Position numbers and translations under genes: made by a program
Part shown: in pieces, positions 1 to 33,211 of the stretch
Layout: every line of letters begins with the position of its first letter
Numbering within the stretch: the first letter of the stretch is position 1
The notes under the pieces: generated by a model
What the model saw: only the letters and a program-made list of their open reading frames with translations
Told to the model about the DNA's origin: nothing
Databases searched by the model: none
Source: a virus
Direction: 5' to 3' (one strand)
IMG/VR virus record: IMGVR_UViG_3300045988_019695
Location: 32,001 to 96,000 of that record
Length of the DNA: 64,000 nucleotides

Positions 1-1441
1 CCTTCTCTGCGTTCACAGCTGCATTTATAGCATTCTATACACCTGTGATCTTTACACCAGTAGAAGATACTGACAAAAAGTTCTCTGACAGCGGATCTAC
101 TTTAACATAAACCTTGTGTTCGTTTACTTCTAAGCCATTAGCAAACTCTGTCTCCTCAAGGAACTTAGAGTAGTCGAGCTTAGCCAGTTTGTAAGTACCA
201 TTAGAAAGAATGTATGAAATACACAATGCTGTAGAACCTACAGGATTACCAGCATGGATTGTACCATCCTCATTAAGTGTTGCATTCATATCAAGAACCT
301 CAATGTCCTTAATAGACTGGTCCTTAGCGATATCAATTGTAACGCCCTTAGCTTCTCCATTAACCTAGAGCTGATATGATACAGCTGTAGTTGAATCATG
401 AGGAGTTACTTTAGCTACTGTTATACTACCAATCTTAGCTTGAAGAGCCTGCTCTGCAGCCTTAGCTCTATCAGATTCAGCTTTAATAGCTTCCTTTCTA
501 TCCGATATCTCAGAGTTAAGGTTATCTGTAAGAGTACCCTCAGCAGCTGTAGCTCTATTTTGCTCTGCTGTAATTCTATCTGAGAGACCATTCTCTGCTG
601 TAGTAGCTCTACTAACTTCTGTAGCAAGACTAGCTGTAATCTTAGCCTCCTCAGACTTAGCTCTACTAATCTCTGTATTCAACAGAGCTTTAATAGCGTC
701 ATCTGCATCAGATCTGCTCTTAGCTTCCTGCTGTTCAGCAGCCTTAGCTCTATCAATCTCGTTGCTGAGGTTGTTAGAGATAAGTCTCTCTGCATCTTCT
801 GCTCTAGTCTACTCCTATTCAATCTTTGCTCTGATAATGTTGTCTTCACTCTGTCTTTCAGCTTTCTCTGTAGCATCAGCTTCCTGTCTAGCAAGCTTCT
901 CCTCATTATCTGCATCCTATCTAGCTAACGTTTCAGCGTTAATGCTGGCTGCAAGAGATTCGTCTCCAGTCACTCTATTGTTAATTTCTTTAACAATATC
1001 GTTTGTATTTTTCTCTATAAGGTTTCTATTATCTCTTTCTGAAGCCTCAGCTCTATTCTTCTCTGTTGTTAAAGCAGCTCTAATATCAGTCTCTTCATGA
1101 TTAGCTCTATCTACTTCTGCAATGAGATCATCTGCAAGCTACTTACCCTTGTCTCCAGGATAAGCCGTTCCAGATGTTTCTCCAAGAGCAATAGACTAAC
1201 TTACTTCTACATATGTTGATCCTCCCCATCTATATGTAAGATTAGTGTCTTTTGCTACATATATCTTACCTTCTTCCCCCTAATTAGGGAATGAAAGTAT
1301 ATTTTCGTATTCCTCAACATCATCTACGTAAGAAGGTAACTATGAAGCAGGAACTTTACCATTATTGCTAAGATTAGCAAAATTGCGTTTGATTTTACCC
1401 CAAAGGTACTCAACGCCCTATTGATCTAAATATTGTTTCAT
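1..1441 (-). CDS. tail fibre protein (3' end cut by window edge), read with TAG as sense
   Basis: ATG at 1439-1441. N-terminus MKQYLDQQGVEYLWGKIK..VPASQLPSYVDDVEEY..GKIYVAKDTNLTYRWGGSTY is the common phage tail-fibre N-terminal motif, followed by long RA.AAE coiled-coil repeats. Frame scanned codon by codon: 10 in-frame TAG, no TAA/TGA. Confidence 0.75.
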
Positions 1442-1442
1442 A

Positions 1443-1712
1443 TTACTCTATTACTAAGATTTGTGAAAGAATACTCAAAGGAATGCCTTCGTTGTCCTCG
1501 ACATTATCAAGTCTAGTATTAAGGTTGTACACATTATCCGTAAGTACATCAACCTTATTCTTAAAGTACTGGTTAATATCGTTCTAGAGACCTGTATTTA
1601 CATATCTGAGCATTCCGTCATCGTATATCTGGAGGGCGTCTGCTACGACTCCCTCCGTTGATATGCTTACTATTTTACCATTGATCTATAGATCTTCTCT
1701 CTTTGTATCCAT
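1443..1712 (-). CDS. small late protein (89 aa, 2 in-frame TAG)
   Basis: ATG 1710-1712 lies 2 nt after the stop of the upstream gene. TAA at 1443-1445 sits directly before the next ATG. Only TAG interrupts the frame. Confidence 0.5.
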
Positions 1713-1714
1713 TA

Positions 1715-4700
1715 TTATGTACTTAATATGTATCTTGTGTTACCGATTGTCTTATCAGATGGAGATATAGAGCTAACATTAACCTCAACCTCAGTTGGAA
1801 TTCCAGTAACAGAATTACTAAATGATACAGTTGTGCTATTATCAGAACTATTGGCTTGTACAGTTATATAATAATTAGAATTATACCAAGCTGTACCATA
1901 TTTAGCCCTAGCAATTCCACTAATGGTTACAGCAAATGGGACGGATGGAGAAATAGAAACACCAACGTTCGCAGTTGCTATACCGAGCGGAAAGCCACTC
2001 GCGCTGACCACAGCGTTTACGACAGGTGTTGCGCTACCATCCTATATTATTGTGCAAGTGGCATCTGGATAAGATAAACCGTAATCATTCTTTCCGCTAT
2101 CGGCTCCAGGATAAGACTTTGTAAACGTTAAGTTTCTCTGTGTTGTATTAGTGTTTTCTCCATAAGAGAATGTCTATCTACCAGATGCTACAACATCTCC
2201 TCCTGTACCAATTTTCCAGTTCCAATCGAACGTGTAAAACAGTTCAACACTACCAGCTCCAGAAGAAAGGTTGCTACTTTCAACAACAATTCTATTAAGA
2301 CCAGAACTTGTTATTCTACTATTAGCATCTTGTTCCCAAGTATATGATAAACCAGTGTCGCTTACAGTTTCTGTGCCAGACGCTTTATCTGTACTATATA
2401 AAATATCCTTAGTTAAGCTTACAGTTTTATCTGTTACATCTTGCTCAACTCCACCTTTAGTATAATACTATTGGTAAGTTAATGATTGCTTACCGCCTGA
2501 TGTAGTAAATGACATAGAGTTACCATTCTTCCACCTATAGAATGGGCCTAATACTGGATCTTCTGGTCTACCATTCTGAGACCATGACCATGTAATAGTG
2601 TTACCAGAATTGTTTTGCGTAAGTGTTCCGCTATCACTCCTAGAAAAAGTGGATGTATTATTTCCGCTAGGCCATCCTTTTTCTCTTCCAGTATAACCAA
2701 CATCTTGACGTTCTGTATTACCTTTAGAGCTGGTTCTAGTTCTGTATGAATTAATAGTAGCGTTATTATATTCTCCAAAATCCGCAGCATTGCTTAAGTC
2801 GTATGCTATATCATTTGCAGAAATAGATTCAGTCATATTACTCCACTAGAATGTATATATTACAGAAGGATCATCCCAACTTGGCCATATCTCCGGTTCT
2901 GGAGCAGGTTCGTTATACGTAATGTCAAATGTAGCAGAATCACGATAAGTGTGACCAGTATTATAATCATAATATGTCTAGGTTACTGTAACGCTACCAC
3001 TACCATTTGCTGTTCCAGATATTGTTGTACCATATTTAGATATCTGCATGCTTCCAGACAAGCCAGACACATTAGATGCAGATATGCTACACATTTCGCC
3101 TTCTGATTCACCAGATATATGGCTTCTAGTAGGCTTACAAGCTGCTCTCTTATTAGATGTTGTACCAGATGCGGTATATGGAGTATAGTCTTCATACTCC
3201 TGATAAGCGTAAGCTGTAAAGCTAATATCCGCAGGTTTTTCTTTTATTGTAATAGAAGAAGGACTTACGCTTACGTGTACATCTCCCCACGTTCTAGAAT
3301 TACTTCCAGCAGTTACAGAATATCTTTTTTCTCCTGGATCATTCTAAGAAACGATTACTCTAGTACCAACCCAATTATTAGAACCTCCAGTAACAGTAGC
3401 ATCTTCGCCACCAATTGTGATAGTAGGCCTCTCAGGACATGTAACATTAACTGTGTAAGTCCAGCTCTTTAAAGCAGGATTATATATAACATTACATGAA
3501 GCACTTTCTCCATTAGCATTAGATTCTGTACATGTTACAGTTATTGTTCCTATACTTTCTGTACTAGATGCTGTAGCTGTAAATGATGTTCCATTTTTAG
3601 AGAATGTCATACCAGAAGGTCCGCTAACAGAATAGCTATTACCAGTGTGACTCGTAGAACTACTTGTTACATCAGTTGATACTTCTCCATTCTTAGCAAC
3701 AGTTCCACTAGATGTTCTCCAGATATATTTTGTACCAGACTGATACATAGATACACTAAACTCTTTTGTTAGATTATCGTCAAGATTCCATGAATCAGGT
3801 GACAAAGAAACATTGTAGTCGTTCCATTCTGTATCTTTAGTACCACCAGAGATACTCCATGATACACTATCAGGTGCTGATGTTGTAGCAGAATCACTAA
3901 TAGTAATCTTTCCTACATAGTAACCATTGATATGAGTTACAATAGCATTATGGCCGTTGATTGTAATAGTAGGAGTATTGCTTGTATTAGTATCAGAAGC
4001 CTTTACAGTATATGTATAGCTATCGTATGAAGGTTCTGTATAGAATACATTTGTTGTAGCTGATAGACTTCCATATGTAACAATTATAGAGCCAGTGCAA
4101 GATGTGCTAGATGCAGCTGAAGTGAAGTTCATTCCATCTTTAGAATGAGAGAAAGACTAGCCTGATGGATGCGTATCACTAATAGTGTAATCAATAGTAG
4201 GATACTCTGTAGTCGTAGAAGTAGTAAGGCTAACACTTGTAGAATCATTTCTAGCAATAGTACCAGTAGTATGATCCCAAGCTTTAGTAGTTTTTATTCT
4301 ACTATAACCAACTGTGAACTATTTAGATAATCCTTCTTTCAGATCCCAAGATGTTGGAGATATAGAAAGCGTACCTTCGTTATATGTGTCTCCAGCTCCA
4401 CCTCCACTTATTGTAAAATCAACAAATTCAGGTGCTTCACTCTCAGTTCTTACTCTAGTTGTATACTAGAATGTATAAGTATTACCTGATGTTGTATACC
4501 TAGTAATAGCTGTGCCGTTTATGGTGACAGTAGGAGCAGAAGTGCAAGTAGCTACAAGTGAATATGTGTAAACAAGATTAGCTTCTTTAGCTTCCTGTAT
4601 AATAGTAATTGTGTCAGAATTGCCAGTAGCGTTAGAACCATTTATATGTCCAATTCGCTGATTACCCATATTAGCTGTTACTTTGAATCTTATTTCGGTA

Positions 4701-5044
4701 CTGTTTATTACAATATCTGTAATCCAATCTACATCTGCTGTAGCATTATATTCTATTGTATCACCATCTATATCTCTTGACGATACAGCAGTTGTATATG
4801 TATTACCTGCAGCCTATGGATTATATCTATTATTAGCAAATGAGAATGTACTAAGATCTGGTTTATCTTCAACAGCGAATACATCTATATATTCGTTGTT
4901 AAGATACTATGACAAATTGGATGTAATATTCTTCCTATGAGACTCTGCTATCTACACAGCAGCAGACTTAGTTATACACTCATTTGTACCAGAAGTATTA
5001 TCTCCTACAAGCTAATAAACTTTCTTGTATGTTAATATTTCCAT
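1715..5044 (-). CDS. very large S/T/N-rich repeat protein (about 1109 aa), probable tail fibre / receptor-binding protein
   Basis: Six track ORFs (1715-2011, 2468-2836, 3344-4132, 4466-4669 and others) share one frame. All gaps were scanned: 13 TAG, no TAA/TGA. Recurrent blocks (PTITINGxxA.VT, SWSISGG, TxTC) suggest Ig-like beta repeats. Position is in the tail module. Confidence 0.65.
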
Positions 5045-5046
5045 TT

Positions 5047-6198
5047 TTATGATTTATTAGTTTCAATACAGAACATTCCACTATTAAAGTAATATGTAAA
5101 CGTAGCTGATAATGTCATCCGCTCTTCAGGGTAATTATAATTACCTTGTCCATATATTTCGCAATACGCCGGAAGTGTATTAGAACCAGATTCTGTTACA
5201 CCATTTATATCAAATGTATAGTTTCCGCTATTTGACCAGCTAAACGAATCGTTATCTGTCTTTTTATATGCAGTGTAGCTCATTCCTATATCGTGGCCTT
5301 TTTGTCCAAACCATACAGTGTAAAGATAAACCTTACATGTAAGAAGTCCGTTCTCATCAGTAAGAGCTTCCTCTATAGTCTTTCCATTAAGAGTAGAAAT
5401 TTCGTCTCTATTCTAATTTATATACCGAGCTATAGAATCGAAGTCAACCAATGCGTGCTCCTAACCTGTACCAGTATTATCTCCAGCAAAGCCAAGAATA
5501 TTTGTTCCGTTAGGAAGTGATACTCTACTATTTGTGCCGAATCCAACATACTAATTTTGCACTCCGTTTATAAAGCATGCTACTGTTGTAGCCTAATCAA
5601 GGTCTCTACCGTTGCTCCAACTATAAGTAAAGTCGATAACATCACCGTAAACTAACTCAAGACCAGCTCTGGCTTGTATCAAGTTAATCTTACACTCCTT
5701 TGTTTCGTCTTCACTGTTTACTACTTTAATATTCTCTACTACAAACTAACTATTTGTGTTTTCAGCTTTAGGCCAAAAAGAATAACCATCAGTATTACTT
5801 ACGTATTCAAACCTCTCTGGATCTACAAGGATTCTACACCCTACAGCATCGTCGCTAAGCTTTTCACCAGTAATAAGGTATGTATGTTTGAGAGCTTTCA
5901 CATATATTCTTTTTGCATCAGAATCACTCTTAGCCTGTGCTGAAAATATTGCTTGAGCAGTATCGCTCCAGCTCTCATTATCATACGATACCTGTATAGA
6001 ATACTCGACCCTAGTCTAGCTTTCACATTCGAACTCATCTATAAGTTCAGAATCAGAATAGCTAGAAAGGTCGTTGGTTATCCTCTTTAGCTTCTAACTA
6101 GCAATATCTTGAGCTTCACTTTTAGTAATAATCTCATTTGTACTTAATGAAGTAGCTCCAACTTCATTATATACTTGTTTTTGTGTTAGAAGCTCCAT
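5047..6198 (-). CDS. tail-module protein (383 aa, 7 in-frame TAG)
   Basis: ATG 6196-6198, TAA 5047-5049. Gap 5284-6198 scanned: TAG only. The N-terminus (MELLTQKQVYNEVGATSLSTNEIITKSEAQ) resembles the N-terminus of the next gene (MEILTYKKVYQLVGDNTSGTNECITKSAA), suggesting a shared attachment module. Confidence 0.55.
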
Positions 6199-6204
6199 AA
6201 TAGA

Positions 6205-7008
6205 TTAATCTGTAATTTTAAAGAAATGCTGAGCATTTACATTACTAATACCGGCTGCAGGAGTAAGTGTAGCTCCATTCTTAACCCAGTATCTATTGAG
6301 AATCTGCTCAATCTTACTCTCAATATCATTACCGCCAATAGCCTGCTGAATCAGCTGATTAATTCTATTGTCGATATAGTTTGTAACATCACTGTTCTGC
6401 TTGATGATAGTGCTAAGGTCACCTGCTACCCACTGACCATTTGTATAGATAAGGACATTACCTTCTCTACCATCTGGGAGGAAAGCCTGTGCACCAGCGC
6501 CATTAATCTTACCATTAATAGTAATGTTGTTAACTGTTGTATTGCCATCAACTCTCAAGTCGCCTTCACTCTTAAGCAGCTTATGTACTGTAAGAGTATT
6601 ACAATCTAACTAAAGAGCCTTAAATACACCCATTACATCAAGGTCGTTACAAGTGATCTTGTGGTCTGCCTGAATGCTAACAGGGTTGCCATGTGCTGTA
6701 AGCTTATCGTAAGCATCAAGTGTACCACGAACTTCCTAGTTACCATTTACATCATGGTTACCACGAACAGTCTGATCGCCTTCTACAGTTGTATTGCCCT
6801 CGAATACTGTATCACCATGGAATGTAGCCCTATTGAACTCTGGGTTACTCTTGAAGTCTTCTACCTTATTATTGATGTTCTTTACAACATCCTCAATAGA
6901 AGCTTTGTTCTTCTCAGACCAGATCTGACTAGCATCAGCAACAATACCCTCTGTAGAGATGTTTACAAGCTTACCATATATCTGAATATCTTCGTTTGTT
7001 GCGTTCAT
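6205..7008 (-). CDS. tail-module protein (267 aa, 2 in-frame TAG)
   Basis: ORFs 6736-7008 and 6205-6558 are in one frame, joined through TAGs at 6736 and 6610. Short G/N/T-rich beta-helix-like repeats are present (GDTVFEGNTTVEGDQTVRGNHDVNGN). Confidence 0.55.
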
Positions 7009-7010
7009 GA

Positions 7011-8396
7011 TTATTTGTTCTTAAATTTAACATAAACAGTAGAGCCACCTGTAGAAAGGTTTCTCTTCATTGGGTTAGGACAGCAGTAATAATATCTTGA
7101 ATCATTAAGCTTCTGCTGAGGCTTAGTGAGAGGGATATATGTAGCTGCGTCAACATTACCAACACCTTGTGTATTAATATTAGCAGCATACAAGATAGGC
7201 TGGCGTGTAACAATCCACAAGTACTGACCATCTGTATCGTTCTCTACAGTAGTAGCATCTGTAAGACTATCTACCTTTGTAAGAAGTGCGAGATTTACAT
7301 TCTCTACACCAACTGTATTGAAAGCTTCCTGGTCCCTTGTCTCGAAAGACTGATCCTTACGGTTAAAGCCATACTTGTAATCGTCTTCCATATTCTCTGG
7401 GAATGGACGTACAGGCAAGAAGCCAATGTAATCATAATCGCCACCAACTACAGTAACATTAAAGCCTGTGCTAACCTCATTGTTCTTAGCAGATACTGTT
7501 ACGTATGTAGATATAGTATTGTCCTGATCAAGAGCCCTAATGAGACCTGTATGCTGATCAATTGTAATAACACCTGTCTTGGCTGCATGGAAGTCAAGCT
7601 GCTCATAAGGCCAGTTATCTGGAGTATACTCAAGTACTGAACCATTCTCAAGCTCTACTTCAATATAGTACTGATGATCTCTTGTATCGAGTTCACCGAG
7701 TCTAATAGATGTATTGCCATACATGTTAAGGTCACCCTTAACTCTAATGGCCAAGATATTCTTGTTCATAAGATCGTCCTTATCTACATCGAGTGTAATG
7801 TCACCACTTGCACCAGACTTGTCATCTACAAGCTGAAGAACATCACCGTAGTCCATTGTATATGTATGGAGGTCGGTGCGACCCCAACCTGGCTCATAAA
7901 TCATAGCCTGTACAACGAGCTTGTATACACCACAGAACATCTGATCCTTTGCAGGGAAGTAGCACTGAATAGAGTTAGCCTTAGGCAGAACTCTAGAGTA
8001 TGCCAAGTATGTAAAGTCCTCACAAGCGCAGCAATTTACAGCGTCGTATGGCTTATTATACTTTGGAGGCAGTATGCCTGGACCAGCTGCAGGATTACAA
8101 CCATGTGGATCAAGCATGCAGCAGAAGCTATGACTGTAACGATTACAATCATTGTGACAGCAATCGTAGTATCTACAATGTGGCAAAGCATGATACTTTG
8201 GATGACCACATCTGTCGTTCACACAACCACAACCATGAACATGCTTATTCCAGAAGCAATCGACTGGGAAATAGTCGAGCATTGATGTATTAATCAAATA
8301 ACACTTAAGCTGTTTGATATTAGCTTGATCGTACGTACGTGGACCACGAAGTGTAAGATTCAATCTTACATCGTTTCCAATTCTAATTCTTTGCAT
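7011..8396 (-). CDS. structural-module protein with a Cys/His-rich insert (461 aa, TAG-free)
   Basis: Uninterrupted ORF. I prefer the ATG at 8394-8396 (MQRIRIGNDV..), because 8412-8452 folds as the terminator of the upstream gene. There are 17 Cys within about 95 residues (CFWNKHVHGCGCVNDRCGHPKYHALPHCRYYDCCHNDCNRYSHSFCCMLDPHGC..NCCAC). Confidence 0.6.
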   Translation of the reverse strand: MQRIRIGNDVRLNLTLRGPRTYDQANIKQLKCYLINTSMLDYFPVDCFWNKHVHGCGCVNDRCGHPKYHALPHCRYYDCCHNDCNRYSHSFCCMLDPHGCNPAAGPGILPPKYNKPYDAVNCCACEDFTYLAYSRVLPKANSIQCYFPAKDQMFCGVYKLVVQAMIYEPGWGRTDLHTYTMDYGDVLQLVDDKSGASGDITLDVDKDDLMNKNILAIRVKGDLNMYGNTSIRLGELDTRDHQYYIEVELENGSVLEYTPDNWPYEQLDFHAAKTGVITIDQHTGLIRALDQDNTISTYVTVSAKNNEVSTGFNVTVVGGDYDYIGFLPVRPFPENMEDDYKYGFNRKDQSFETRDQEAFNTVGVENVNLALLTKVDSLTDATTVENDTDGQYLWIVTRQPILYAANINTQGVGNVDAATYIPLTKPQQKLNDSRYYYCCPNPMKRNLSTGGSTVYVKFKNK

Positions 8397-8411
8397 ATTA
8401 TAATATGTATT

Positions 8412-8452
8412 AAAAACAAATGCCGAGATAGGGCAAGTACCCCACCCCGGCA
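8412..8452 (-). terminator. Rho-independent terminator after gene 8458-9582
   Basis: Minus-strand reading TGCCGGGGTGGGGTACTTGCCCTATCTCGGCA forms a hairpin of about 13 bp (with G-U pairs), followed by TTTGTTTTT. Confidence 0.65.
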
Positions 8453-8457
8453 ATTAA

Positions 8458-9582: not shown

Positions 9583-9657
9583 ATTGTTTAATTTTTTCTA
9601 CTCACCCTATAATGTTGATGCTAGACCTAACTAGCTGGGCTTTCCACGTTAAAATTA

Positions 9658-11815: not shown

Positions 11816-11828
11816 ACGTCGTTCGTTA

Positions 11829-12581: not shown

Positions 12582-12661
12582 AATTTTTCAATTAGTTGTT
12601 GCAATGCCAAGCTCCCACCCGATTTTTGGGTGGGGTTGAACATTGTATATTATTTAATTAA

Positions 12662-15075: not shown

Positions 15076-15093
15076 AATATGTTAATTGTCTCA

Positions 15094-19391: not shown

Positions 19392-19393
19392 AA

Positions 19394-21877: not shown

Positions 21878-21880
21878 GTA

Positions 21881-23944: not shown

Positions 23945-23946
23945 AA

Positions 23947-24456: not shown

Positions 24457-24487
24457 TACTTAAATAATCTTTTAAGCCAGTTTATCT

Positions 24488-27400
24488 TTATGGTAGAAAG
24501 TGTTCAGTAAGATTTTTATTTCTAATTTCGTATACGGCGTCAGAACTTCCTGTTCCATGATTAATAAACCAACCAGATAACGTAGATGACAAATTAGGGC
24601 TTTCTGTATCAGATGCAGACATTACATATATACCATTATTTGTATTATTATTAAATGTTACACTATCCTACTCAATGCGTGTATATGGAATAGATCCTGA
24701 TGATGAACCAGAAGTGCCTGCAATATAATAAGTAAATGATCCAGTAGGCTTGTCAACTTTTGAAATCTTAGCCCAAGACTTATTAGTTGTAATAACATTC
24801 AATGTTCCACCAATTTCGCCAGATGGAGATTGAGATGGAATAGTCTAAACGTATACCGAGCCGGTAATAGCTACAGTTCCTTGCATATTCTTAGTACCAT
24901 TTGTAAATGATGCTTTATTATAAACCTCTACACCAAATAAATATCCATATGTAAGGAATGTGTATATTCCAACCTAATACAATATTGTGCTATTATCTAC
25001 CTTCTTATAATATGTTCCACTAACAGGAGTCTTCATTGTAGCATCCGTATAGTACTTGTTATCTTTTATGGTAAATGTTCCTACCTGACTAAAGCTTAAG
25101 TTTGTATCAGATCCTCTCTTCTGATACCATGTTTCAGTACTATCTGCTGCATTACTATTAATCCAATCTGGTTTACCATTTGTTATTCCAAGATGCCATG
25201 TTGTACCATTTATTACAAAATATATAGTTCCGTTATCAAGTACTATTTTATTAGTAGTACCACTTGTAAGAACACCAGTATTAGTAACTGTAAATGGAGC
25301 TGTATCAAGGCTATTGCCATCTAATGGGCCTGCCCAAATTCTTACATCTCCCTTGTTTATATTAGGATCTAATTTTGAGCTAGTAACATTTCTGCTAGAT
25401 GTCATACCAGCAACAATATCTTCACCATCAAATACCACTACTTCATTTGTAGATAATTCTTTAATAAAGCCTTGGTTTGCAATAATTCTCTATGCTACAA
25501 TATCTGGAGACAACGAGAATGCTGACCAATAAGAAGCAACGTCTGGATAGGTAGACCAATTGTTGTTTTCTCCAGCTTCTGTATTCACACAAGCGTAATA
25601 TACATTATTATATAATACGACGTCCTGATAGAATACACCATCTTCGTCTGACGCTCTCTTGCCATCAAGGTATTTGGTGTTTATTACATGCGAACCTCTC
25701 ATTCTCAAAGGACTTCCATTCATAGTCTAACCTGTAGAAGCATTGCCATCTTTACCAGCAGCTGAAATAGGAATAGTAATAGAGTCTATAAATGCTCCGT
25801 TGCTATTATTTATGATTATCTAAATAGTGGCAGAGCTACTTGAAACTTCTCCGGATATAGAGCAATTCCATTGGTTATTACCTTTTGTTGGAGCAGTAAC
25901 TGTAATACTAGGATTTGTACTTACGTTGCAGTTATAACCAGAAGTTTCCTATAAAGCATAATCAGCATTACCTTCTTTCTTATAGAGCTTAACAGTAAAT
26001 GTAGAAGAGATATTATATTTATTACTCTCATTGGCCTTATAATTAAGCGACATATCAGATACCTCTATCTTATATGTAACACCATTAATACCATCTACTG
26101 CTGGAGCCTTTATAATAGGAACATATTCTTTGAAATCAAGATTACCATTTTGAGCTCTAAAGTACATTCCATTTTCTCCCTATGTCTATATCTCTTTCTG
26201 TGATATAGGGTGCCAACTTGTACCTCCATCTTCAGAATACGAGAATGTCCAGTCTGATGTTTCGTTAGGGTAGATCTATGTTACCTTATTGCCATCACTC
26301 TTTGTAATGAAACAACTAATCGTACTAGGGTATAAAGAACCATCCTGATAGTTGATGGCGGAAGCATTAGTGTCAAGTCTGTACGAAACAGCATCTGTAC
26401 CAGAACCATTTACAATCCCATAGAACTGAATATCAACGTATCTAATATTAGACTGTATTGCTGTATCTGTTGGCGTAAGCTTAACTCTAAGAGTCCAATA
26501 CTTACCATCAGACATATTCAGACTACCTTCTGGAATAGTCATTGAAATTGTGTTATTATCATAGCTAAACCAAGTATTCCAGCCTGATATAGTTGAATTA
26601 TCTGAACACTTAAAACTTTCAAACTTATGGTTAAAGCTAATCTCTGTACCACTATTATATAAATGCAATCCAGCTGTACCTGAGTATTCTTTGTTTGTAC
26701 CATCGTCTAGCAAATATAAATATTTAGTCTCTCCGATTACGTCAGCAGTAATAGCATTTGACACACCATCTTTAGCATGATAAGCCCATAATGTTGGGTT
26801 GCTATACTAGTGCCAATAAGCATCTTCTGTCTCAGAGCTACTTGGATTATCATCATTTCTCTTCTTTCTTACAGACACCCATGCTGTGCCACCTTGAGGA
26901 ACTTCCTATGGATCGTCAGTCCATGTACCTTTAGATTCTTCTTTTATATACTCGTCTTTATTGAATGACTCGTGATTTGTATCAGCTTTTGATGCTGCAT
27001 TGTCATACCAATCATGTGGATTGTCTGTAGGAGCTTGCTTTGTTTGAGATATAGCAAAGATATACTCTACGCCATCTCCGTCTGTACCATTGTCTCCATA
27101 ATGAGACCAAAGAATAGGTTCTGACCAGATGCTCCATGTTTCTACATCTTTAACTCTTATTGAAACCCATTCGTTTACAAATTTCGAAGTTACACCCTGT
27201 GGGTTATCTGTCCATCCAGAAGGATTATCACCCTATGGTCTTTCGAAAGTCTGCCCTTTTACACCCTATCTATAAATGAATTCTCTATTTGACTAATCTG
27301 TTCCAGCACTAGTACCATCTTCTCCGGTAATACAAATAGGTGTAATATACTATCCATAATTACCATCAGAATCGATGAATACCTATGTCATCCATACATG

Positions 27401-28285
27401 CTGATTAGGGGCTCTATTTATGCTATGCTCAGTCCATCCTGAACCGCCTCCAGGAGCTGCGCCTGCATTTGGAGTCTAGACGCTAGTAGTGTTCTTATCT
27501 ACACATTTGAAGTAAACTTTATATCTACCACCATCTTTACCAGTACCAGAACCAGAAGAACCGCCATCAATTTTAATGACGCCATTTCCATTTGGATCAT
27601 ACAGTGTATATTGATTACCATCAATCTGGAGTTTCTTAAGCTTGTTTATCTCAGCGTATTTAGTAAGCTCATTAGCAAGCTATTCTTTAGTGACAAGTTT
27701 GCTTGTATCAATGCCACCTGAAACGATAGATACTGTGAATTCTCCACCGTTCTTCTGCTTAAGAACAAGCTGACCATTAGCAGAATTATAGTTAAATGAT
27801 TCAATGCTGTAGTCTTTACCGCCTGTTACCTTAATATTGTTTATCTCTGTTGTAAGATTATTGATCTTGTTCTGTATGTCATTCTTAATAGTATCAAGAT
27901 CAGCCTTAAGAGCATACTTACTAAGATCTGCCGTATCATTCTTAATCTTAGCTACAAGCTCATTTACATATTCTATAGTAGCATATTTAGCTAATACATT
28001 GTCACCAAAGCCCAAATCGTAAAGAATGAGCTTAACCTTCTTATCAAGGTCTTCTTCAAGCTCGTCGAGCCTCTCTTCATGTTTATCTACCATTGTCTTA
28101 ATGAGATCAACAACATCCTGGTTAGCTTTATTATCCCACTTATCTTTATCTTCTTTAGATACTGGTTCGCTGTCAGCGTTCTTATTCATCACCTTTGAAA
28201 GGAGAGACGAATACTACTGAGCAGCTTCTAAGTGACCATTATGATGACATGCACATTCATGGTCGCAATAATCAAAATCTACCAT
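24488..28285 (-). CDS. large tail fibre / spike protein (about 1265 aa, 20 in-frame TAG)
   Basis: Five track ORFs (27680-28192, 26276-26764, 25949-26167, 25490-25723, 24974-25438) are in one frame. All gaps, including the 305-codon gap 26765-27679, show TAG only. Features: KEDKDKWDNK fibre motif, a coiled coil, then a beta-rich region. Preferred start is ATG 28283-28285 (MVDFDYCDHECACHHNGH..). Confidence 0.65.
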
Positions 28286-28529
28286 ATTAATTTGTTTAAA
28301 TTGTTAACAATTATAGTACTGTGGTGTCATTGAAGACCACGTCTAAAACGCCACAGTTATAGGTTAAATGAAATCGTTCTAATCTAGCGTATTACTACGC
28401 AAGCCCTAGTATATTCCACCTAGGGGTGATAAAAGTCCTACCCTGGTACGCATTTGAAAAGAGGCGTGGTAGAATCTATTGTGCTAGGCGGGGCAGCGAA
28501 CCCCGTCATGCTTTCATTAAGACCTAGCC
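28286..28529. other. 244-nt ORF-free, hairpin-rich spacer between two tail-fibre genes
   Basis: Minus-strand reading contains GACGGGGTTCGCTGCCCCGCC, ACTGTGG..CCACAGT and other stems. No ORF is present. All other junctions in this operon are 0-20 nt. Confidence 0.4.
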
Positions 28530-29825
28530 TTATGCAGCATCTTCTTGATGTTTAGCTTCAAGTGCTGCAATACGAGCTTCAAGTGCTGCAATCTTTTCAT
28601 AATATACAGACTTTGTAATAAACTCGCTATCATTAGTAAGCTGACTAACCTTTGTAGGAACAGTAGGAAGTTCAACCTTCTTAGCATACTCTTCAAGAGA
28701 CTGATGTTCTGTAAGGTAATTACCTTTAGGCTGTTTTGTATCAATAGCAGAATTCAGTATACCAACCTGTTCATTAAGAGCTGTTGTAAGAACATAATTA
28801 CTAAGTGCTGTAGTATCAGCTTTAGCATTTATAAGGTTCTGGAGATACGATTCCTGACCATTAGCACGCTCAACTTCTGTTCTAATAGCTTCATTGATAG
28901 CTGTTTCTGCAGTTGTAGCTCTAGATGCTTCATTCTGAATAGCGAGAGCATTATCACCTTCAACTTCCTTAGCTCTAGCAGCCTCTGCTGCAATCTCAGC
29001 CTTATTCTATGCTTCTGCTGCCTTAGCTCTTGTAATCTCTTCATTAAGGGCAACTGTAGTAGCCTTAGTAGCAATAGCATCATTAATAGCTGTATGCAGA
29101 TCATCATTACTATTAAGCTTATCTGCAATCTCCTTCAATGTATCATAAGCCTCTGGAGCTGCGCCAACTACATCAGCTATAGCTTTTCTGAATGAACCTT
29201 CAGTTGTAGAGTCACCATTAATAATATCCACCTCTGCTTTGATCTCATTCTCCTTAGCAGTAGCACGTGTTACCTCAGCATTGAGGTTATCCTTAATTGT
29301 ATTGTCGTCATTCTCACGCTTTGTAGCCTCAGCCTGTATGTCTGAAGAAAGAGCATTCTCACTAGCCTTAGCACGATTAACTTCAGCTGTAAGATCATTG
29401 CGAAGCTGAGTATCAGCGTTTACTCTTTCCTGCTTCTCTGTATCAATGTTCTACTGAAGTACATTATCTCTTTCATTTGACTCTATCTCCTTCTGATCAA
29501 TCTTATCATCAAGAGTATTATCTCCCTAGATTCTATTAGCAGTCTCTTCCTCTGCCTTTTCTTGGAATACATCAAATCTATGATTTGTAGTATCTCTAAA
29601 ATTATGGATTTCATTTACAATCTCTTCAAGGGAATCATGATTATTATCAACATTGCCCTTAAGTTCATCAAACGCCTGGATTACTGCATTAGCATCCATG
29701 ATATCACCACGTACGTACTCACCTGCATGCTCACCCATCAAGAGGTTAACTGTTCTTGTACCAACATCCTTGGCGCCATGTACCTATACACCTACCAAAG
29801 GTGTCTTAATAAATTTCTTCTTCAT
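28530..29825 (-). CDS. coiled-coil tail fibre protein (431 aa, 4 in-frame TAG)
   Basis: ATG 29823-29825, TAA 28530. Scan shows TAG only. Features: RA.A.E heptad-like repeats and the fibre motif APEAYDTLKEIADKL. Confidence 0.65.
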
Positions 29826-29854
29826 TATATATAATGTCTAATTTGATATGTGTC

Positions 29855-29893
29855 TAAACAGTAAAAGGGAACTACCTTTCGGTAATCCCCTTT
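29855..29893 (-). terminator. Rho-independent terminator after dUTPase
   Basis: Minus-strand reading AAAGGGGATTACC GAAA GGTAGTTCCCTTT is followed by TACTGTTT. Confidence 0.6.
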
Positions 29894-29910
29894 ACGTAAG
29901 TGAATTAGGC

Positions 29911-30462
29911 CTATCCTTCACTTACCTCAGCACCTTCTTGTGCCGCCGCTGGCTCTGGTACGGACTCAACCTGTTCCTTAAGCTGTGACTGAGTTCCCGT
30001 AGCTGCGCTAGATTCATTCTCATTATCTGTGCCAGTAGAACCAAATCCACCCTCACCTCTCTCTGTAGGTGTAAGCTCTGAAACTTCTGTAATTTCGTAC
30101 TCTGGTACAGGAACTATGACTAACTGACAGAATCTCTCTCCCTTCTGATATACTGCAGGGATTGCATCTGTTGTTGCCTTCATGACAGCCAGGATCTCAC
30201 CTCTGTAGTCACTGTCTATCACTCCGACATTATCTGTAAGCCATAATGATTTCTTCCAAATACTAGAGCGTGGTATAAGTAAACCAACATATCCGGCAGG
30301 AATCTCAACTGCCAATCCTGTATGGTAAACCAACATTAGCTGATTTGCTTCATTAATAACTGTATCTATCTTAATGCAAGTCAAATCAATTCCTGCAGCA
30401 CCTTTTGTGCCACGAATAGGAAGGATTGCTTTATCCTCAAGTCTCTTAAATTTTAACTCCAT
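29911..30462 (-). CDS. dut: dUTP pyrophosphatase (trimeric dUTPase) with acidic C-terminal extension
   Basis: Motifs AAGIDL, PRSS, GVIDSDYRGE and GGFGSTG. The ORF ends in TAG, with a TAA two codons later. Confidence 0.9.
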   Translation of the reverse strand: MELKFKRLEDKAILPIRGTKGAAGIDLTCIKIDTVINEANQLMLVYHTGLAVEIPAGYVGLLIPRSSIWKKSLWLTDNVGVIDSDYRGEILAVMKATTDAIPAVYQKGERFCQLVIVPVPEYEITEVSELTPTERGEGGFGSTGTDNENESSAATGTQSQLKEQVESVPEPAAAQEGAEVSEG

Positions 30463-30488
30463 AGTATTTATAATATGTTTATTATTGT

Positions 30489-30530
30489 TACCCCACTAGG
30501 ATTCGAACCCAGACTAAACATAATCTTTTA
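30489..30530 (-). other. orphan tRNA 3'-half-like fragment (canonical T-arm plus acceptor strand)
   Basis: Minus-strand reading is CTGGG TTCGAAT CCTAG TGGGGTA A. No matching 5' half lies within 80 nt. The acceptor strand TGGGGTA is nearly identical to TGGGGCT of the suppressor tRNA 450 nt upstream. Confidence 0.5.
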
Positions 30531-30531
30531 A

Positions 30532-30960
30532 CTAGTCTATTGTAAGATTGTAGAAGTGAAGTTTTCTATGGCAATTTGCACATAGTACAACACATTTGTC
30601 AACTTCGTTTTTTATAGAAGCAACACCTTTGTCTCTACATTGGCTTCCTATGCTAAAAGACTTATCATGAAGATGATGAAAATCTAAGCAAGCTTGATCT
30701 TTTTCTCCACATATGATACAACCGTTAGATTTTAGTTGTCTCATATATTGTGTTAAAAATTTCTTATAAGATCTATGCTTTTTATATATATCATTCTTGT
30801 TCTTTTTGTAATATTCCTCATAATATTTATGTTTGCATTCCTTGCATTGAGGTGATAGGCCATCAGGTTTGCTACTATTCTTCGCAAACTGATCAAGTGG
30901 TTTTTCTATACCACATTTAGTGCATACTTTTGTTTTCATGTAAAAATATTTAATACGCAC
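30532..30960 (-). CDS. HNH endonuclease with zinc-ribbon-like CxxC pairs
   Basis: Motifs CTKCG..CKEC, CIICG, LDFHHLHDK and LCANCHRKLH. 142 aa with no internal TAG; the ORF ends in TAG. Confidence 0.8.
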   Translation of the reverse strand: MRIKYFYMKTKVCTKCGIEKPLDQFAKNSSKPDGLSPQCKECKHKYYEEYYKKNKNDIYKKHRSYKKFLTQYMRQLKSNGCIICGEKDQACLDFHHLHDKSFSIGSQCRDKGVASIKNEVDKCVVLCANCHRKLHFYNLTID

Positions 30961-30982
30961 CTCTAACCTACGTATTTATTAG

Positions 30983-31055
30983 TAGCCCCACTCCGTGTCC
31001 ATCGGAGACCTACTGTTTTAGAGACAGTTGTGCACAGGCGGTACACCATAGGGCA
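30983..31055 (-). tRNA. suppressor tRNA, anticodon CUA (reads TAG)
   Basis: 73 nt: TGCCCTA TG GTGT ACCGCCTGT GCAC A ACTGT CTCTAAA ACAGT AGGT CTCCG ATGGACA CGGAG TGGGGCT A. All four stems pair: the 5-bp anticodon and T stems are perfect, the D stem is 4 bp with one G-U, and the acceptor pairs 6 of 7. Loop CTCTAAA gives U33-CUA-A37. The D-loop lacks GG and the T-loop lacks TTC. Confidence 0.8.
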
Positions 31056-31763: not shown

Positions 31764-31773
31764 AACTTAAATA

Positions 31774-32163: not shown

Positions 32164-32371
32164 ATGGGCTTAATGGTTTGCTTTTATTGTCTTTAAATCT
32201 ATTCTTAAGCTTGAATCTAAATAGTTTGTTTATTAATACATCTCTAGTATCATCTTGATCTTTCATAACATCAACTACGAACTAGAACTAATGCATAACT
32301 ATCTGTTTTACAAGCTCCGGGTCTTCGTTTAGCTATTGTCCGATCTATCTACAAACTTTATCTATATTCAT
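32141..32371 (-). CDS. small protein (76 aa, 4 in-frame TAG)
   Basis: The ATG shares 1 nt with the upstream TGA. Sequence MNIDKVCRQIGQQLNEDPELVKQIVMHQFQFVVDVMKDQDDTRDVLINKLFRFKLKNRFK. It overlaps the next gene start by 23 nt. Confidence 0.45.
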
Positions 32372-32799
32372 CACTTATCTATTGTCTCAGTTGCTACAAT
32401 ATCGTAAAGCGATACAAGTTGAGAATCTTTAAGTAAGTCAAAATACATAGCTCCTCTAGATGATCTGTATATCACAATATCTCCAACCTTGATAGGCATC
32501 TGCTGTATCTTTTCATCGTCATATGGGTGTGTGTACTCATATGGCAACTTAAGTACTACAGCTCTAGAGAAATCTGAATCAACTTCCTTAATCTCTGTCT
32601 TTACTTCATCATAATCAACTGCTTCGATCCCATCCTTATCCTTCTTAGGCTTAGTGTCTTTAGCCACAGGTTCGGAGATCTTCTTTTTAACTTTAACAGG
32701 CTCGAGTGGCTTTACCAAGAACATCTATCTGAACTCATACTTTATCTTTGAGCTCAAGTCTTCTGCCAACTGAGTCTGATCTATCATCTTCTCATCCAT
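32371..32799 (-). CDS. hypothetical protein, weakly GroES/Gp31-like (142 aa, 1 TAG)
   Basis: ATG 32797-32799. ORF 32371-32724 is extended through the TAG at 32725. The FLVKPL..KVGDIVIY..pattern is reminiscent of a co-chaperonin fold; this is a weak call. Confidence 0.3.
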
Positions 32800-32800
32800 A

Positions 32801-33211
32801 TTACTTCTTCAATCCTTTAAGGTACTCAAGTAACTTAATCATGTTTCTCAATACTGTTTCCTTCTCAACAAGCAAACACTGAGGTGTATTCTCATCAGAC
32901 TTTTCCTTAATGGTGCAAAGCTCATTGTTGTATTCGTTGAGCTTATTATCTATCTCATCAAAGATATTTACAAATCTCTTTTTCTCATCAACTTCCTCAA
33001 CATATCCATTATCGAGAAGCATCTTGGCATATTCCTTTGAGATTCTATAAACAGAATTATAAGAAGAAACAACCGTTGAATTATCTTCATTTGAGCTGTT
33101 ATGCTCTTCGTTATATACACTTTCGTACTGCTCAGTATCAGCGTTGTACTCAAATGTATCACCACTCTCCATTACGAAGAAAGGCTTAATAACCTTTAAA
33201 ATCTTTGTCAT
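32801..33211 (-). CDS. acidic hypothetical protein, first gene of the minus-strand block
   Basis: ORF 32801-33217. I prefer the ATG at 33209-33211 (MTKILKVIKPFF..). Confidence 0.5.
   Translation of the reverse strand: MTKILKVIKPFFVMESGDTFEYNADTEQYESVYNEEHNSSNEDNSTVVSSYNSVYRISKEYAKMLLDNGYVEEVDEKKRFVNIFDEIDNKLNEYNNELCTIKEKSDENTPQCLLVEKETVLRNMIKLLEYLKGLKK

What the first reader, a model, noticed from the sequence alone, without database searches (positions are those of the whole stretch)
1..33211. The whole late (minus-strand) module is readable only if TAG is a sense codon, most likely Gln
Under the standard code, portal, TerL, the tail fibres and most virion genes fall into 60-280 aa fragments. 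Every break I checked is CTA on the plus strand, which is TAG.

I scanned the gaps of 20 genes codon by codon. They hold about 147 in-frame TAGs and not one TAA or TGA. True gene ends are always TAA or TGA, often as ATGA or TAA-n-ATG junctions.

Evidence pointing to Gln:
- A TAG supplies the Q of the conserved GIY-YIG box HLQSAWNKYG.
- TAGs sit inside poly-Q runs (portal tail MQTRQEQMQQQQQETEAQQQQQLQQ).
- TAG is one transition from CAG.

Stop-codon recoding of late genes is known for some crAss-like phages. Here the density is extreme: 19 TAG in 342 codons at 17968-18996.
Basis: partly seen in the sequence, partly recalled or inferred. Interest (0 to 1): 0.75.

Follow-up and report, generated by a model that had tools for sequence, protein, structure and literature searches.

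The report
Known TAG-to-glutamine recoding, crAss-like phage

Summary
With TAG read as sense, the minus strand of 1-33211 resolves into 28 back-to-back ORFs. They hold 149 in-frame TAGs and no internal TAA or TGA, and all complete ORFs end in TAA or TGA. Coverage by ORFs of at least 100 aa rises from 40% to 90%. TGA-sense and TAA-sense controls give only 44% and 51%.

TAG means Gln:
- In 80 related contigs, window-TAG sites carry TAG, CAG or CAA far more than anything else. A Gln model beats the next amino acid by 63.6 log-likelihood units.
- Two standard-code relatives have Gln at 17/24 and 20/48 of these sites.
- T4 I-TevI has Q at both TAGs of the GIY-YIG domain.

A tRNA(CUA) gene lies at 30982-31055(-), at the head of the recoded block.

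This is not new. The window is 93% identical over part of an 8.9-kb late-gene query (including TerL and portal) to RefSeq Burzaovirus faecalis cr124_1, whose CDSs already read through TAG and which has an annotated tRNA-Gln(CUA).

Refinements: several plus-strand genes probably still end at TAG. The capsid gene and two other late genes avoid TAG. A glucosaminidase-domain gene is the most TAG-dense. The suppressor tRNA here is an atypical copy carried by an HNH-endonuclease insertion that split the canonical gene.

The parts
2..30939 (-). Recoded late block: 24 consecutive ORFs with 148 in-frame TAGs in 9951 codons. They include tail and fibre proteins, MCP, portal, TerL and dUTPase. The block is cut by the left edge of the window.
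   Evidence: PHROG hits for portal, TerL and major head protein. Collinear with the cr124_1 late module.
30982..31055 (-). Suppressor tRNA(CUA) gene, an atypical variant. All four stems are intact and the anticodon loop is CUCUAAA. The D-loop lacks GG and the T-loop is AUGGACA instead of TTCGAAT.
   Evidence: A covariance model built only from 10 relatives' tRNA(CUA) genes scores it 60 bits, E 1.5e-14, full length. ARAGORN finds it only at a relaxed threshold. The Rfam tRNA model misses it even at E<=10. Across the family 96% of cells are paired and 11 pairs change on both sides. Its MFE fold is a cloverleaf.
30532..30939 (-). HNH endonuclease ORF up to its first TAG (codon 136). It belongs to an insertion of about 525 nt (30519-31041) inside the ancestral suppressor-tRNA gene.
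   Evidence: phrog_2255 HNH endonuclease, E 1.4e-32, residues 2-129. Insertion breakpoints were mapped against HNH-free relatives L003, L009 and L013.
30487..30518 (-). Remnant of the canonical tRNA-Gln(CUA): variable loop, T-arm and 3' acceptor strand. It is identical to the cr124_1 tRNA 3' part.
   Evidence: cr124_1 tRNA sequence.
29905..30462 (-). dUTPase gene. It is in frame with the upstream HNH ORF through the three TAGs of the tRNA remnant and has one further TAG near its 3' end.
   Evidence: Pfam PF00692, E 1.4e-23. cr124_1 dUTPase directly follows its tRNA-Gln. Frames in relatives.
21881..23944 (-). Terminase large subunit, 687 codons, 10 TAGs.
   Evidence: phrog_6681, E 3.9e-147. Same length as cr124_1 TerL, which has 8 TAGs.
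19394..21877 (-). Portal protein, 827 codons, 13 TAGs, including two in the C-terminal Q-rich tract.
   Evidence: phrog_6547, E 1e-161. Sequence.
17968..18996 (-). The most TAG-dense gene: 19 TAGs against 11 CAG/CAA in 342 codons. It encodes a glucosaminidase-domain (peptidoglycan hydrolase) protein.
   Evidence: Pfam PF01832, E 6e-8. PHROG endolysin, E 5.8e-6.
16361..17971 (-). The second most TAG-dense large gene: 20 TAGs against 12 CAG/CAA in 536 codons. Function unknown.
18993..19391 (-). Free-standing GIY-YIG/NUMOD homing-endonuclease-like ORF with 6 TAGs in 132 codons. Two of the TAGs align with Q of I-TevI.
12662..15075 (-). Major capsid gene, TAG-free over 511 codons. Exons are 15075-14692 and 13810-12662. 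They are split by an 881-nt insert (13811-14691) that carries an HNH ORF (13815-14570, 2 TAGs).
   Evidence: tblastn and blastn against the cr124_1 MCP, 98-99% identical, with a clean break. PHROG major head protein and HNH hits. Weak Rfam group I intron hit, 29.3 bits, E 2.8e-5, below the gathering score.
7011..9582 (-). Two further TAG-free late genes: 7011-8396 (461 codons) and 8458-9582 (374 codons).
   Evidence: P(0 TAG) is 0.001 and 0.004 at the block's mean TAG rate. The cr124_1 homologue at 67776-68906 also has 0 TAGs.
32371..32799 (-). Small gene upstream of the tRNA array, annotated 'chaperonin' in cr124_1. It has a single TAG at codon 25, which is CAG in 11 relatives that are 96-97% identical.
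   Evidence: Annotation.
33895..34365 (+). Plus-strand ORF with six in-frame TAGs. Distant relatives have sense codons at those sites, so the ORF is real. No function was found.
   Evidence: Annotated full-length in cr124_1 as gp45. No Pfam or PHROG hit.
40204..40407 (+). Early gene that probably ends at TAG (codon 68).
   Evidence: The aligned codon is TAA in 22 relatives, TAG in 8 and AAG in 7. Conservation changes abruptly after it.
40728..41225 (+). Early gene ending ...GGAGGAT TAG CTA TGA. The TAG is kept in all 32 relatives, and TGA follows two codons later.
43816..44232 (+). Early gene with TAG at codon 139 in all 37 relatives, including two that are only 51% identical. The TAG lies 30 nt before the ECF-type sigma factor gene (44262-44819).

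Best explanation
This is the late (virion and lysis) module of a Crassvirales phage of family Suoliviridae, close to Burzaovirus faecalis. It uses the 'code 15' reassignment: TAG encodes glutamine, and TAA and TGA remain the only stops.

Decoding is by a phage-encoded tRNA with anticodon CUA and a tRNA-Gln-type body. Its gene sits at the head of the recoded block, on the same strand.

Most plus-strand (replication and regulation) genes contain no TAG, and a few appear to end at TAG. They are therefore readable by the unmodified host machinery. Genes with early in-frame TAGs cannot be completed until the suppressor accumulates. The recoding thus acts as a translational gate on late and lysis proteins.

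Shown here:
- TAG is sense in the late module.
- TAG corresponds to Gln.
- A tRNA(CUA) gene is present, and it is homologous to the canonical suppressor of relatives.
- TAG use is uneven: zero in the capsid gene, highest in a peptidoglycan hydrolase.

Inferred, not shown:
- The host GlnRS charges the tRNA.
- The tRNA outcompetes RF1.
- Expression follows an early-then-late order.
- The atypical tRNA copy in this genome is the functional one.
For: TAG is sense
- ORF restoration is specific to TAG-sense: coverage 0.40 to 0.90, against 0.44 and 0.51 for TGA- and TAA-sense.

TAG is Gln
- Codon-level tabulation over 80 relatives and the Gln model.
- Standard-code relatives L015 and L022 have Gln at 17/24 and 20/48 TAG sites.
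- I-TevI has Q at two TAGs.
- A CAG-to-TAG difference in a 97%-identical gene.
- TAG makes up 31% of TAG+CAG+CAA on the minus strand and 4.6% on the plus strand.

The tRNA
- tRNA(CUA) at 30982-31055 scores 60 bits, E 1.5e-14, against a model built without it.
- Family-wide covariation supports the cloverleaf.
- Of 119 bacterial tRNAs sharing the canonical family's D-arm and T-loop motif, 106 have anticodon TTG, i.e. Gln.

Relatives and literature
- RefSeq cr124_1 already reads through TAG and annotates a tRNA-Gln(CUA) before dUTPase.
- Yutin 2021 reports TAG->Gln with suppressor tRNAs, mostly in late genes, in Beta, Delta and Zeta crAss-like phages (PMC7886860).
- Peters 2022 found peptides with Gln at TAG in two crAss-like phages (PMC9523058).
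- Borges 2021 reports that lysis genes preferentially use TAG.

Consistent with a gate
- The most TAG-dense gene has a glucosaminidase domain.
- The first TAG falls within the first 16 codons in 10 of 20 TAG-containing late genes.
Against: - The only tRNA(CUA) in the window lacks the conserved G18G19 and T-Psi-C loop motifs. General tRNA models cannot see it.
- Five other contigs with the same variant have C instead of the near-universal U at position 33. Its function is therefore not certain.
- About 37 kb of the genome lies outside the window and could hold another suppressor.
- No release factor or aminoacyl-tRNA synthetase was found among 20 plus-strand proteins scanned from 33.5-55.8 kb.
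- No expression timing or peptide data exist for this genome.
- TAG sites are less conserved than ordinary Gln sites: the majority residue is Q at 29 of 93 sites in divergent relatives. The per-site signal is statistical, not site by site.
- No +4 nucleotide context bias was seen.
Confidence: 0.93

Rival explanations
1. TAG is a sense codon but encodes an amino acid other than Gln, such as Glu, Lys, Tyr, Trp, Leu, Ser or pyrrolysine.
For: Many TAG sites align with non-Gln residues in divergent relatives: E 12, A 7 and T 6 of 93 sites. ARAGORN labels any CUA anticodon 'Pyl' by convention.
Against: - The Gln model is better than Glu by 63.6 ln units and better than every other residue by more.
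- CAG plus CAA make up about half of the non-TAG cells (990 of 1954); the next codon is GAA with 155.
- Reciprocally, where relatives have TAG the window has Q at 132 of 409 sites, and the next residue is E at 48.
- I-TevI has Q at both aligned TAGs.
- The tRNA body is Gln-type.
- Proteomics in two other crAss-like phages found Gln.
Confidence: 0.03
2. The TAGs are true stops. The late genes are fragmented or decaying, or are expressed only by inefficient natural read-through without a dedicated tRNA.
For: The window's tRNA(CUA) is structurally atypical, and most of its copies elsewhere have C33.
Against: - There are 149 in-frame TAGs and no TAA or TGA in about 10,500 codons, whereas off-frame TAA and TGA are abundant.
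- Full-length colinearity and conservation across TAGs hold in more than 70 independent contigs.
- TAG interchanges with CAG and CAA.
- Pseudogenes would accumulate all three stops and frameshifts.
Confidence: 0.02
3. The phage simply mirrors a host that itself reads TAG as Gln, so there is no phage-driven code switch.
For: The host is not identified here.
Against: - The plus-strand half avoids TAG: 11 in 7556 codons, 6 of them in one ORF.
- In at least one plus-strand gene TAG aligns with TAA stops of relatives.
- The phage carries its own tRNA(CUA).
- Close relatives use the standard code, with TAG as a stop.
- The literature reports standard-code hosts for recoded phages.
Confidence: 0.02
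4. Sequencing or assembly artefact, for example C-to-T miscalls at CAG.
For: TAG is one transition from CAG.
Against: - The same TAG positions recur in many independent assemblies: 793 TAG cells in close relatives.
- The effect is confined to one module and to one reading frame.
- CAG remains common in the same genes, with 222 CAG against 149 TAG.
Confidence: 0.005

Closest known systems
Burzaovirus faecalis (uncultured phage cr124_1, NC_055899.1) and cr7_1 (NC_055895.1); Crassvirales, Suoliviridae, Oafivirinae
   Same: - 93% nucleotide identity over 57% of an 8.9-kb late-gene query covering portal, TerL and neighbouring genes, with the same gene order.
- TerL is 687 codons in both.
- RefSeq CDSs read through TAG: 8 in TerL, 15 in portal, up to 60 in one gene.
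- The MCP has 0 TAGs.
- All late CDSs checked end in TAA or TGA.
- A tRNA(CUA), annotated tRNA-Gln, lies directly upstream of dUTPase.
   Different: - cr124_1 has the canonical tRNA. The window has an HNH insertion inside that gene and an atypical replacement tRNA.
- The window also has an HNH-containing insert in MCP, which cr124_1 lacks.
- The window has a GIY-YIG ORF immediately after portal; cr124_1 annotates no ORF between portal and the following gene.
Code-15 (TAG->Gln) crAss-like phages: Yutin et al. 2021 (PMC7886860), Peters et al. 2022 (PMC9523058), Borges et al. 2021 (bioRxiv 10.1101/2021.08.26.457843)
   Same: - TAG reassigned to Gln, mostly in late structural and lysis genes.
- A phage-encoded suppressor tRNA.
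- The replication module is in standard code.
- Lysis-related genes preferentially use TAG.
- Here the most TAG-dense gene is a glucosaminidase-domain protein.
   Different: Nothing essential differs. No proteomic data exist for this genome. The preferentially recoded hydrolase here is a glucosaminidase, not the amidase and spanin families named by Borges et al.
'Code-change modules' (suppressor tRNA + aaRS + release factor) of Jade, Lak and Agate phages (Borges et al. 2021)
   Same: The suppressor tRNA gene lies immediately upstream of the recoded genes.
   Different: No release factor or aminoacyl-tRNA synthetase was found among the 20 plus-strand proteins scanned. Only a tRNA is present. 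Those phages mostly recode TGA->Trp.
E. coli supE-type amber suppressor (tRNA-Gln with CUA anticodon); from my own knowledge
   Same: A tRNA-Gln body with the anticodon changed to CUA, inserting Gln at UAG. The D-arm of the phage tRNA family is Gln-type.
   Different: It is phage-encoded and serves hundreds of sense TAGs rather than leaky suppression. The copy in this window lacks the canonical D-loop and T-loop motifs.
Free-standing homing endonucleases in phage tRNA regions, such as T4 SegB; from my own knowledge, not checked in the paper library
   Same: An endonuclease ORF is embedded in a phage tRNA gene cluster, with a sequence-divergent allele of the neighbouring tRNA on the endonuclease-bearing chromosome.
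   Different: This one is HNH rather than GIY-YIG. It is inserted inside the tRNA gene and leaves a 3' remnant. Cleavage specificity is untested.

Membership tests
TAG->Gln ('code 15') recoded Crassvirales | In-frame TAG in conserved late genes (TerL, portal) that are otherwise full-length | tested here: met
   TerL has 10 TAGs and portal 13. Both give full-length PHROG matches.
TAG->Gln ('code 15') recoded Crassvirales | TAG positions correspond to Gln in homologues | tested here: met
   The Gln model is best by 63.6 ln units. Standard-code relatives have Q at 17/24 and 20/48 sites.
TAG->Gln ('code 15') recoded Crassvirales | TAA and TGA remain stops and never occur inside the joined frames | tested here: met
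   There are 0 internal TAA or TGA. ORF ends are 19 TAA and 7 TGA. TGA-sense and TAA-sense controls give no gain.
TAG->Gln ('code 15') recoded Crassvirales | Phage-encoded suppressor tRNA with anticodon CUA | tested here: met
   Window 30982-31055(-), 60 bits against a family model built without it. The copy is structurally atypical.
TAG->Gln ('code 15') recoded Crassvirales | Recoding confined mainly to the late module, with early and replication genes compatible with the standard code | tested here: met
   The plus strand has 11 TAGs in 7556 codons; the minus strand has 149 in 10465. Several plus-strand TAGs behave as stops. The exception is ORF 33895-34365(+), with 6 sense TAGs.
TAG->Gln ('code 15') recoded Crassvirales | Phylogenetic placement in Crassvirales | tested here: met
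   93% nucleotide identity to Burzaovirus faecalis over 57% of an 8.9-kb late-gene query (portal, TerL and neighbours). Taxonomy line of NC_055899.1.
TAG->Gln ('code 15') recoded Crassvirales | Peptide evidence for Gln at TAG | not testable with these tools
   Available only for two other crAss-like phages.
Canonical bacterial-type elongator tRNA-Gln | Cloverleaf with a 7-nt anticodon loop, U33 and a purine at position 37 | tested here: met
   The window copy has loop CUCUAAA, all four stems paired and a cloverleaf MFE fold. Five sister copies have C33.
Canonical bacterial-type elongator tRNA-Gln | Conserved G18G19 in the D-loop and T54-Psi55-C56 in the T-loop | tested here: not met
   The D-loop is CGCCU after a 6-bp stem and the T-loop is AUGGACA. 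The Rfam tRNA model gives no hit even at E<=10. The canonical relatives do have both motifs.
Canonical bacterial-type elongator tRNA-Gln | Gln-type body (D-arm TGGTGTAAYGG..GCAC) | tested here: inconclusive
   The motif is Gln-specific among sampled bacterial tRNAs: 106 of 119 have anticodon TTG. The window copy keeps the D-stem but not the D-loop.
Canonical bacterial-type elongator tRNA-Gln | Aminoacylation by GlnRS | not testable with these tools
   Inferred only.
Code-change module with release factor and/or aaRS (Borges et al.) | Phage-encoded RF2 or GlnRS near the suppressor tRNA | tested here: not met
   No such Pfam domain in the 20 plus-strand proteins scanned from 33.5-55.8 kb. None is annotated in cr124_1. 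The part of the genome outside the window is unseen.
Group I intron with homing endonuclease in MCP (Delta-group crAss-like; Yutin 2021) | Precise interruption of a conserved gene, an endonuclease ORF inside, and a group I ribozyme core | tested here: inconclusive
   A clean 881-nt insert between MCP codons 128 and 129 contains an HNH ORF. Rfam Intron_gpI scores only 29.3 bits, below the gathering score of 50, with E 2.8e-5.

The most novel reading that the evidence does not exclude
In this lineage (the window plus at least 6 IMG/VR contigs) the canonical tRNA-Gln(CUA) gene has been split by a cassette of about 525 nt. The cassette carries an HNH endonuclease and its own replacement tRNA body, which has compensated stems but no G18G19 or T-Psi-C motifs.

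On this reading, decoding of about 150 or more late-gene TAGs depends on a tRNA delivered by a selfish element and invisible to standard tRNA finders. The divergent tRNA sequence could serve as the cleavage-resistant allele that lets the endonuclease spread among co-infecting recoded phages. It would also be a concrete example of why many recoded phages appear to lack a suppressor tRNA.
Probability: 0.4. Interest if true: 0.5.

Novelty: already known. Interest (0 to 1): 0.2.

Why it matters
The recoding matters in practice. Gene callers that use code 11 shred this module, cutting ORF coverage from 90% to 40%.

It is also the leading example of a virus changing the genetic code during infection to gate late and lysis gene expression. 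But the phenomenon, its Gln assignment, the suppressor tRNA and its occurrence in this clade are all published, and they are annotated in RefSeq for a 93%-identical relative. This window adds another member rather than new biology.

The modest new points are:
- An HNH cassette sits inside the suppressor-tRNA gene, with an atypical replacement tRNA.
- TAG probably still acts as a stop in early genes of the same genome.
- The capsid gene avoids TAG completely, while a peptidoglycan hydrolase uses it most.

Tried and rejected
- TGA-sense and TAA-sense translations give no comparable ORF restoration.
- Default ARAGORN and Rfam at gathering score found no CUA tRNA. Rfam at E<=10 on the 601-nt tRNA region also missed it. 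It was recovered only with relaxed ARAGORN and with a family-specific covariance model.
- I considered a tRNA split by an intron holding the HNH ORF, with the 5' exon upstream and the 3' exon at the remnant. I rejected it. The upstream copy is a complete cloverleaf by itself, and the sequence before the remnant cannot pair with the upstream anticodon-stem strand.
- I considered that the GroES-like gene 32371-32799 starts at the ATG just after its TAG. I rejected it. The N-terminal extension is conserved in relatives down to 48% identity, and the TAG is CAG in 11 of them.
- No phage release factor or synthetase was found.
- The +4 and -1 nucleotide context of TAG does not differ significantly from CAG/CAA or from other codons.
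- One viral scan was wasted on a pattern with one N too many and then repeated correctly.
It shows isotype specificity only, not the source of the tRNA.
- The ORF-poor 2.1-kb stretch 47305-49407 gave no Rfam hit and no notable repeats.


Full report
**1. The observation**

With TAA and TGA as the only stops, the minus strand of 2-33211 resolves into 28 consecutive ORFs.
- They cover 94.7% of the region.
- They contain 149 in-frame TAGs in 22 ORFs, and no TAA or TGA.
- The 26 complete ORFs end in TAA (19) or TGA (7).

The effect is specific to TAG and to this half of the window:

| Code | Minus strand 1-33211, ORFs >=100 aa | Plus strand 33212-64000 |
|---|---|---|
| Code 11 | 0.399 | 0.687 |
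| TAG sense | 0.896 | 0.730 |
| TGA sense | 0.436 | 0.715 |
| TAA sense | 0.508 | 0.737 |

The longest ORF grows from 481 to 1272 codons, stop to stop.

- 19 TAGs in 342 codons at 17968-18996.
- The portal Q-rich tail.
- The GIY-YIG box HLXSAWNKYG.

**2. What TAG encodes**

I fetched 80 related contigs through TerL, which is 69-99% identical to the window's. I then mapped, codon by codon, what they carry at the window's TAG positions.
- Raw cells: TAG 1130, CAG 553, CAA 437, GAA 155, GAG 92, AAG 71, TAT 30, TGG 29.
- In the 60 divergent contigs, the substitution profile of TAG is Q 0.41, TAG 0.21, E 0.12, K 0.055. That is the profile of CAG and CAA, and of no other codon class.
- I took one majority residue per site and scored it against the empirical profile of each amino acid. 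Gln wins by 63.6 ln units over Glu.
- Reciprocally, where relatives have TAG and the window does not, the window has Gln at 132 of 409 sites. The next residue is Glu at 48.

Two relatives, L015 and L022, are standard-code phages.
- They have 0 in-frame TAGs in 1676 and 3249 aligned codons.
- They are 95-98% coding under code 11, and TAG is used as a true stop, for example at the L022 portal.
- They have Gln at 17/24 and 20/48 window-TAG sites.

Two independent checks agree.
- T4 I-TevI (PDB 1MK0) has Q opposite both TAGs of the GIY-YIG domain.
- The single TAG of gene 32371-32799 is CAG in eleven 96-97%-identical relatives.

**3. Identity of the phage, and prior knowledge**

An 8.9-kb late-gene query (19394-28285, covering portal, TerL and two further genes) matches RefSeq NC_055899.1 at 93% nucleotide identity over 57% of its length. 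That record is crAssphage cr124_1, Burzaovirus faecalis, in Suoliviridae, Crassvirales. NC_055895.1 (cr7_1) matches equally well.

In cr124_1:
- The late-module CDSs I checked contain 0-60 in-frame TAGs, no TAA or TGA, and end in TAA or TGA.
- The MCP has none.
- A tRNA annotated tRNA-Gln, with anticodon CTA, sits directly before dUTPase.

The literature already covers the phenomenon.
- Yutin et al. [quoted passage not shown] The recoding is mostly in late genes and comes with suppressor tRNAs (PMC7886860).
- Peters et al. 2022 detected peptides with Gln at TAG in two crAss-like phages (PMC9523058).
- Borges et al. 2021 propose that recoding gates late and lysis genes, and show that lysis genes prefer TAG.

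The finding is therefore a correct rediscovery.

**4. The decoder in this window**

Default ARAGORN and Rfam find no CUA tRNA. At a relaxed threshold ARAGORN reports one at 30982-31055(-).

I built a covariance model from ten suppressor tRNAs of relatives, leaving the window out.
- It scores this site 60 bits, E 1.5e-14, full length, as the best hit in the window.
- Across the family, 96% of cells pair and 11 of 21 pairs show changes on both sides. Slid-partner controls give 43-55% pairing.

The canonical family has a Gln-type body. Of 119 bacterial tRNAs sharing its D-arm and T-loop motif with the anticodon left free, 106 have anticodon TTG.

The window's copy is unusual.
- The stems are kept through compensatory changes.
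- The D-loop lacks GG.
- The T-loop is AUGGACA.
- A C19:G56 swap of the usual G19:C56 tertiary pair is possible, but that is my inference.

**5. Why the tRNA is odd**

Against HNH-free relatives, homology runs from upstream into the first 9 nt of the tRNA (14 nt in L003) and then stops. It resumes at 30518, at the variable loop and T-arm of the canonical tRNA, and continues into dUTPase.

The roughly 525 nt in between carry:
- The rest of the variant tRNA.
- An HNH endonuclease ORF (phrog_2255, E 1.4e-32).

The canonical 3' remnant is identical to the cr124_1 sequence.

Five further IMG/VR contigs show the identical variant tRNA followed by the same HNH start, and a sixth match lies at the end of its locus. 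All five have C33 where the window has U33.

The HNH ORF is in frame with dUTPase through three TAGs that lie in the remnant. In relative L081 the two ORFs are in different frames. These three TAGs may therefore act as the HNH terminator before the code switch.

**6. Distribution of TAG**

TAG is 31% of TAG+CAG+CAA on the minus strand and 4.6% on the plus strand.

Three late genes have none, although the block's rate of 1.5% predicts several each:
- The MCP, 511 codons once its two exons are joined.
- 8458-9582.
- 7011-8396.

The homologues checked in cr124_1, its MCP and the 67776-68906 gene, are TAG-free too.

The densest genes are:
- 17968-18996, with a glucosaminidase domain (PF01832) and a PHROG endolysin match.
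- 16361-17971.
- The GIY-YIG ORF.

In 10 of 20 TAG-containing late genes the first TAG falls within 16 codons of the start. This fits a translational gate. It also suggests that suppression is costly for the most abundant protein, which is an inference.

**7. The other strand**

Five of 38 plus-strand ORFs meet TAG before TAA or TGA.

| ORF | Observation |
|---|---|
| 40204-40548 | Codon 68 is TAA in 22 relatives, TAG in 8 and AAG in 7; conservation changes there, so TAG is probably the stop |
| 40728-41225 | Ends GGAGGAT TAG CTA TGA; the TAG is kept in 32/32 relatives |
| 43816-44304 | TAG at codon 139 in 37/37 relatives, including two at 51% identity; 30 nt before an ECF sigma factor gene |
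| 33895-34365 | Six TAGs spread along a real ORF; distant relatives have sense codons there |

The genome therefore appears to use TAG in two ways, as described for block-wise multi-code crAss-like genomes.

**8. What was not found**

- No release factor or synthetase among the 20 plus-strand proteins scanned.
- No +4 context bias.

**9. Verdict**

The novelty class is 'already known'. The only points that go beyond the literature I could search are the HNH cassette inside the suppressor-tRNA gene and its non-canonical replacement tRNA. A library search for homing endonuclease together with suppressor tRNA, phage and HNH returned nothing relevant.

Noticed in passing
window 30487-31055 (-): An HNH endonuclease cassette of about 525 nt is inserted inside the ancestral tRNA-Gln(CUA) gene. 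It supplies a complete but atypical replacement tRNA and leaves the canonical 3' part as a remnant. The same arrangement occurs in at least 6 IMG/VR contigs, where position 33 is C rather than U.
   Followed up: yes
window 13811-14691 (-): An 881-nt insert lies exactly between MCP codons 128 and 129. It carries an HNH endonuclease ORF (13815-14570, with 2 TAGs). It gives a weak Rfam group I intron match (29.3 bits, below the gathering score). It is absent from cr124_1.
   Followed up: partly
window 31062-31134 (-) and 31356-31429 (-): Two tRNA-like genes pass the Rfam tRNA gathering score (36.4 and 37.6 bits) but have abnormal anticodon arms. One has an 8-nt loop, UUUGAAGA (UUUAAAGA in relatives). 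The other has a 3-bp CCC/GGG stem around GAUACAAA, and the central C is U in some relatives. Both are conserved in position across relatives. Their decoding role, if any, is unknown.
   Followed up: partly
window 42974-43206 (+) (ARAGORN 42944-43297): A phage-encoded permuted tmRNA (Rfam RF04321, 56.5 bits; ARAGORN tag peptide DNVNNIVDYTNVA). It is also annotated in cr124_1. Whether it relates to ribosome stalling at TAG was not examined.
   Followed up: no
window 36973-37052 (+): A RAGATH-1 hammerhead ribozyme (Rfam RF03152, 71.8 bits, above the gathering score) in an ORF-poor stretch of the early module.
   Followed up: no
window 43816-44819 (+): A TAG kept in all 37 relatives ends (or interrupts) the ORF just upstream of an ECF-type sigma factor gene (44262-44819). 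Read-through would extend that ORF across the sigma factor start codon. A code-dependent regulatory coupling is conceivable but untested.
   Followed up: partly
window 33895-34365 (+): An ORF on the 'early' strand, next to the divergent intergenic region, has six in-frame TAGs. It gave no Pfam or PHROG match.
   Followed up: partly
window 33414-33516: Tandem 18-nt and 9-nt TAGTA-rich repeats lie in the intergenic region between the divergently oriented modules. GC and AT skew change sign at the same place (about 33-34 kb).
   Followed up: no
window 47305-49407: A 2.1-kb stretch has no ORF longer than 73 codons under code 11. It gave no Rfam hit and no notable repeats. The corresponding region of cr124_1 (28219-30380) is also unannotated.
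   Followed up: partly
window 18993-19391 (-): A free-standing GIY-YIG/NUMOD ORF lies between portal and the next gene. Only the first ~54 residues match the GIY-YIG catalytic domain, so it may be a degenerate endonuclease. It has 6 TAGs in 132 codons.
   Followed up: partly
L015 and L022 (IMGVR_UViG_3300021255_000461, IMGVR_UViG_3300012016_000020): These relatives have TerL 81-82% identical to the window's but use the standard code. They have no in-frame TAG, and TAG serves as a real stop. The code state has therefore switched within this clade.
   Followed up: partly
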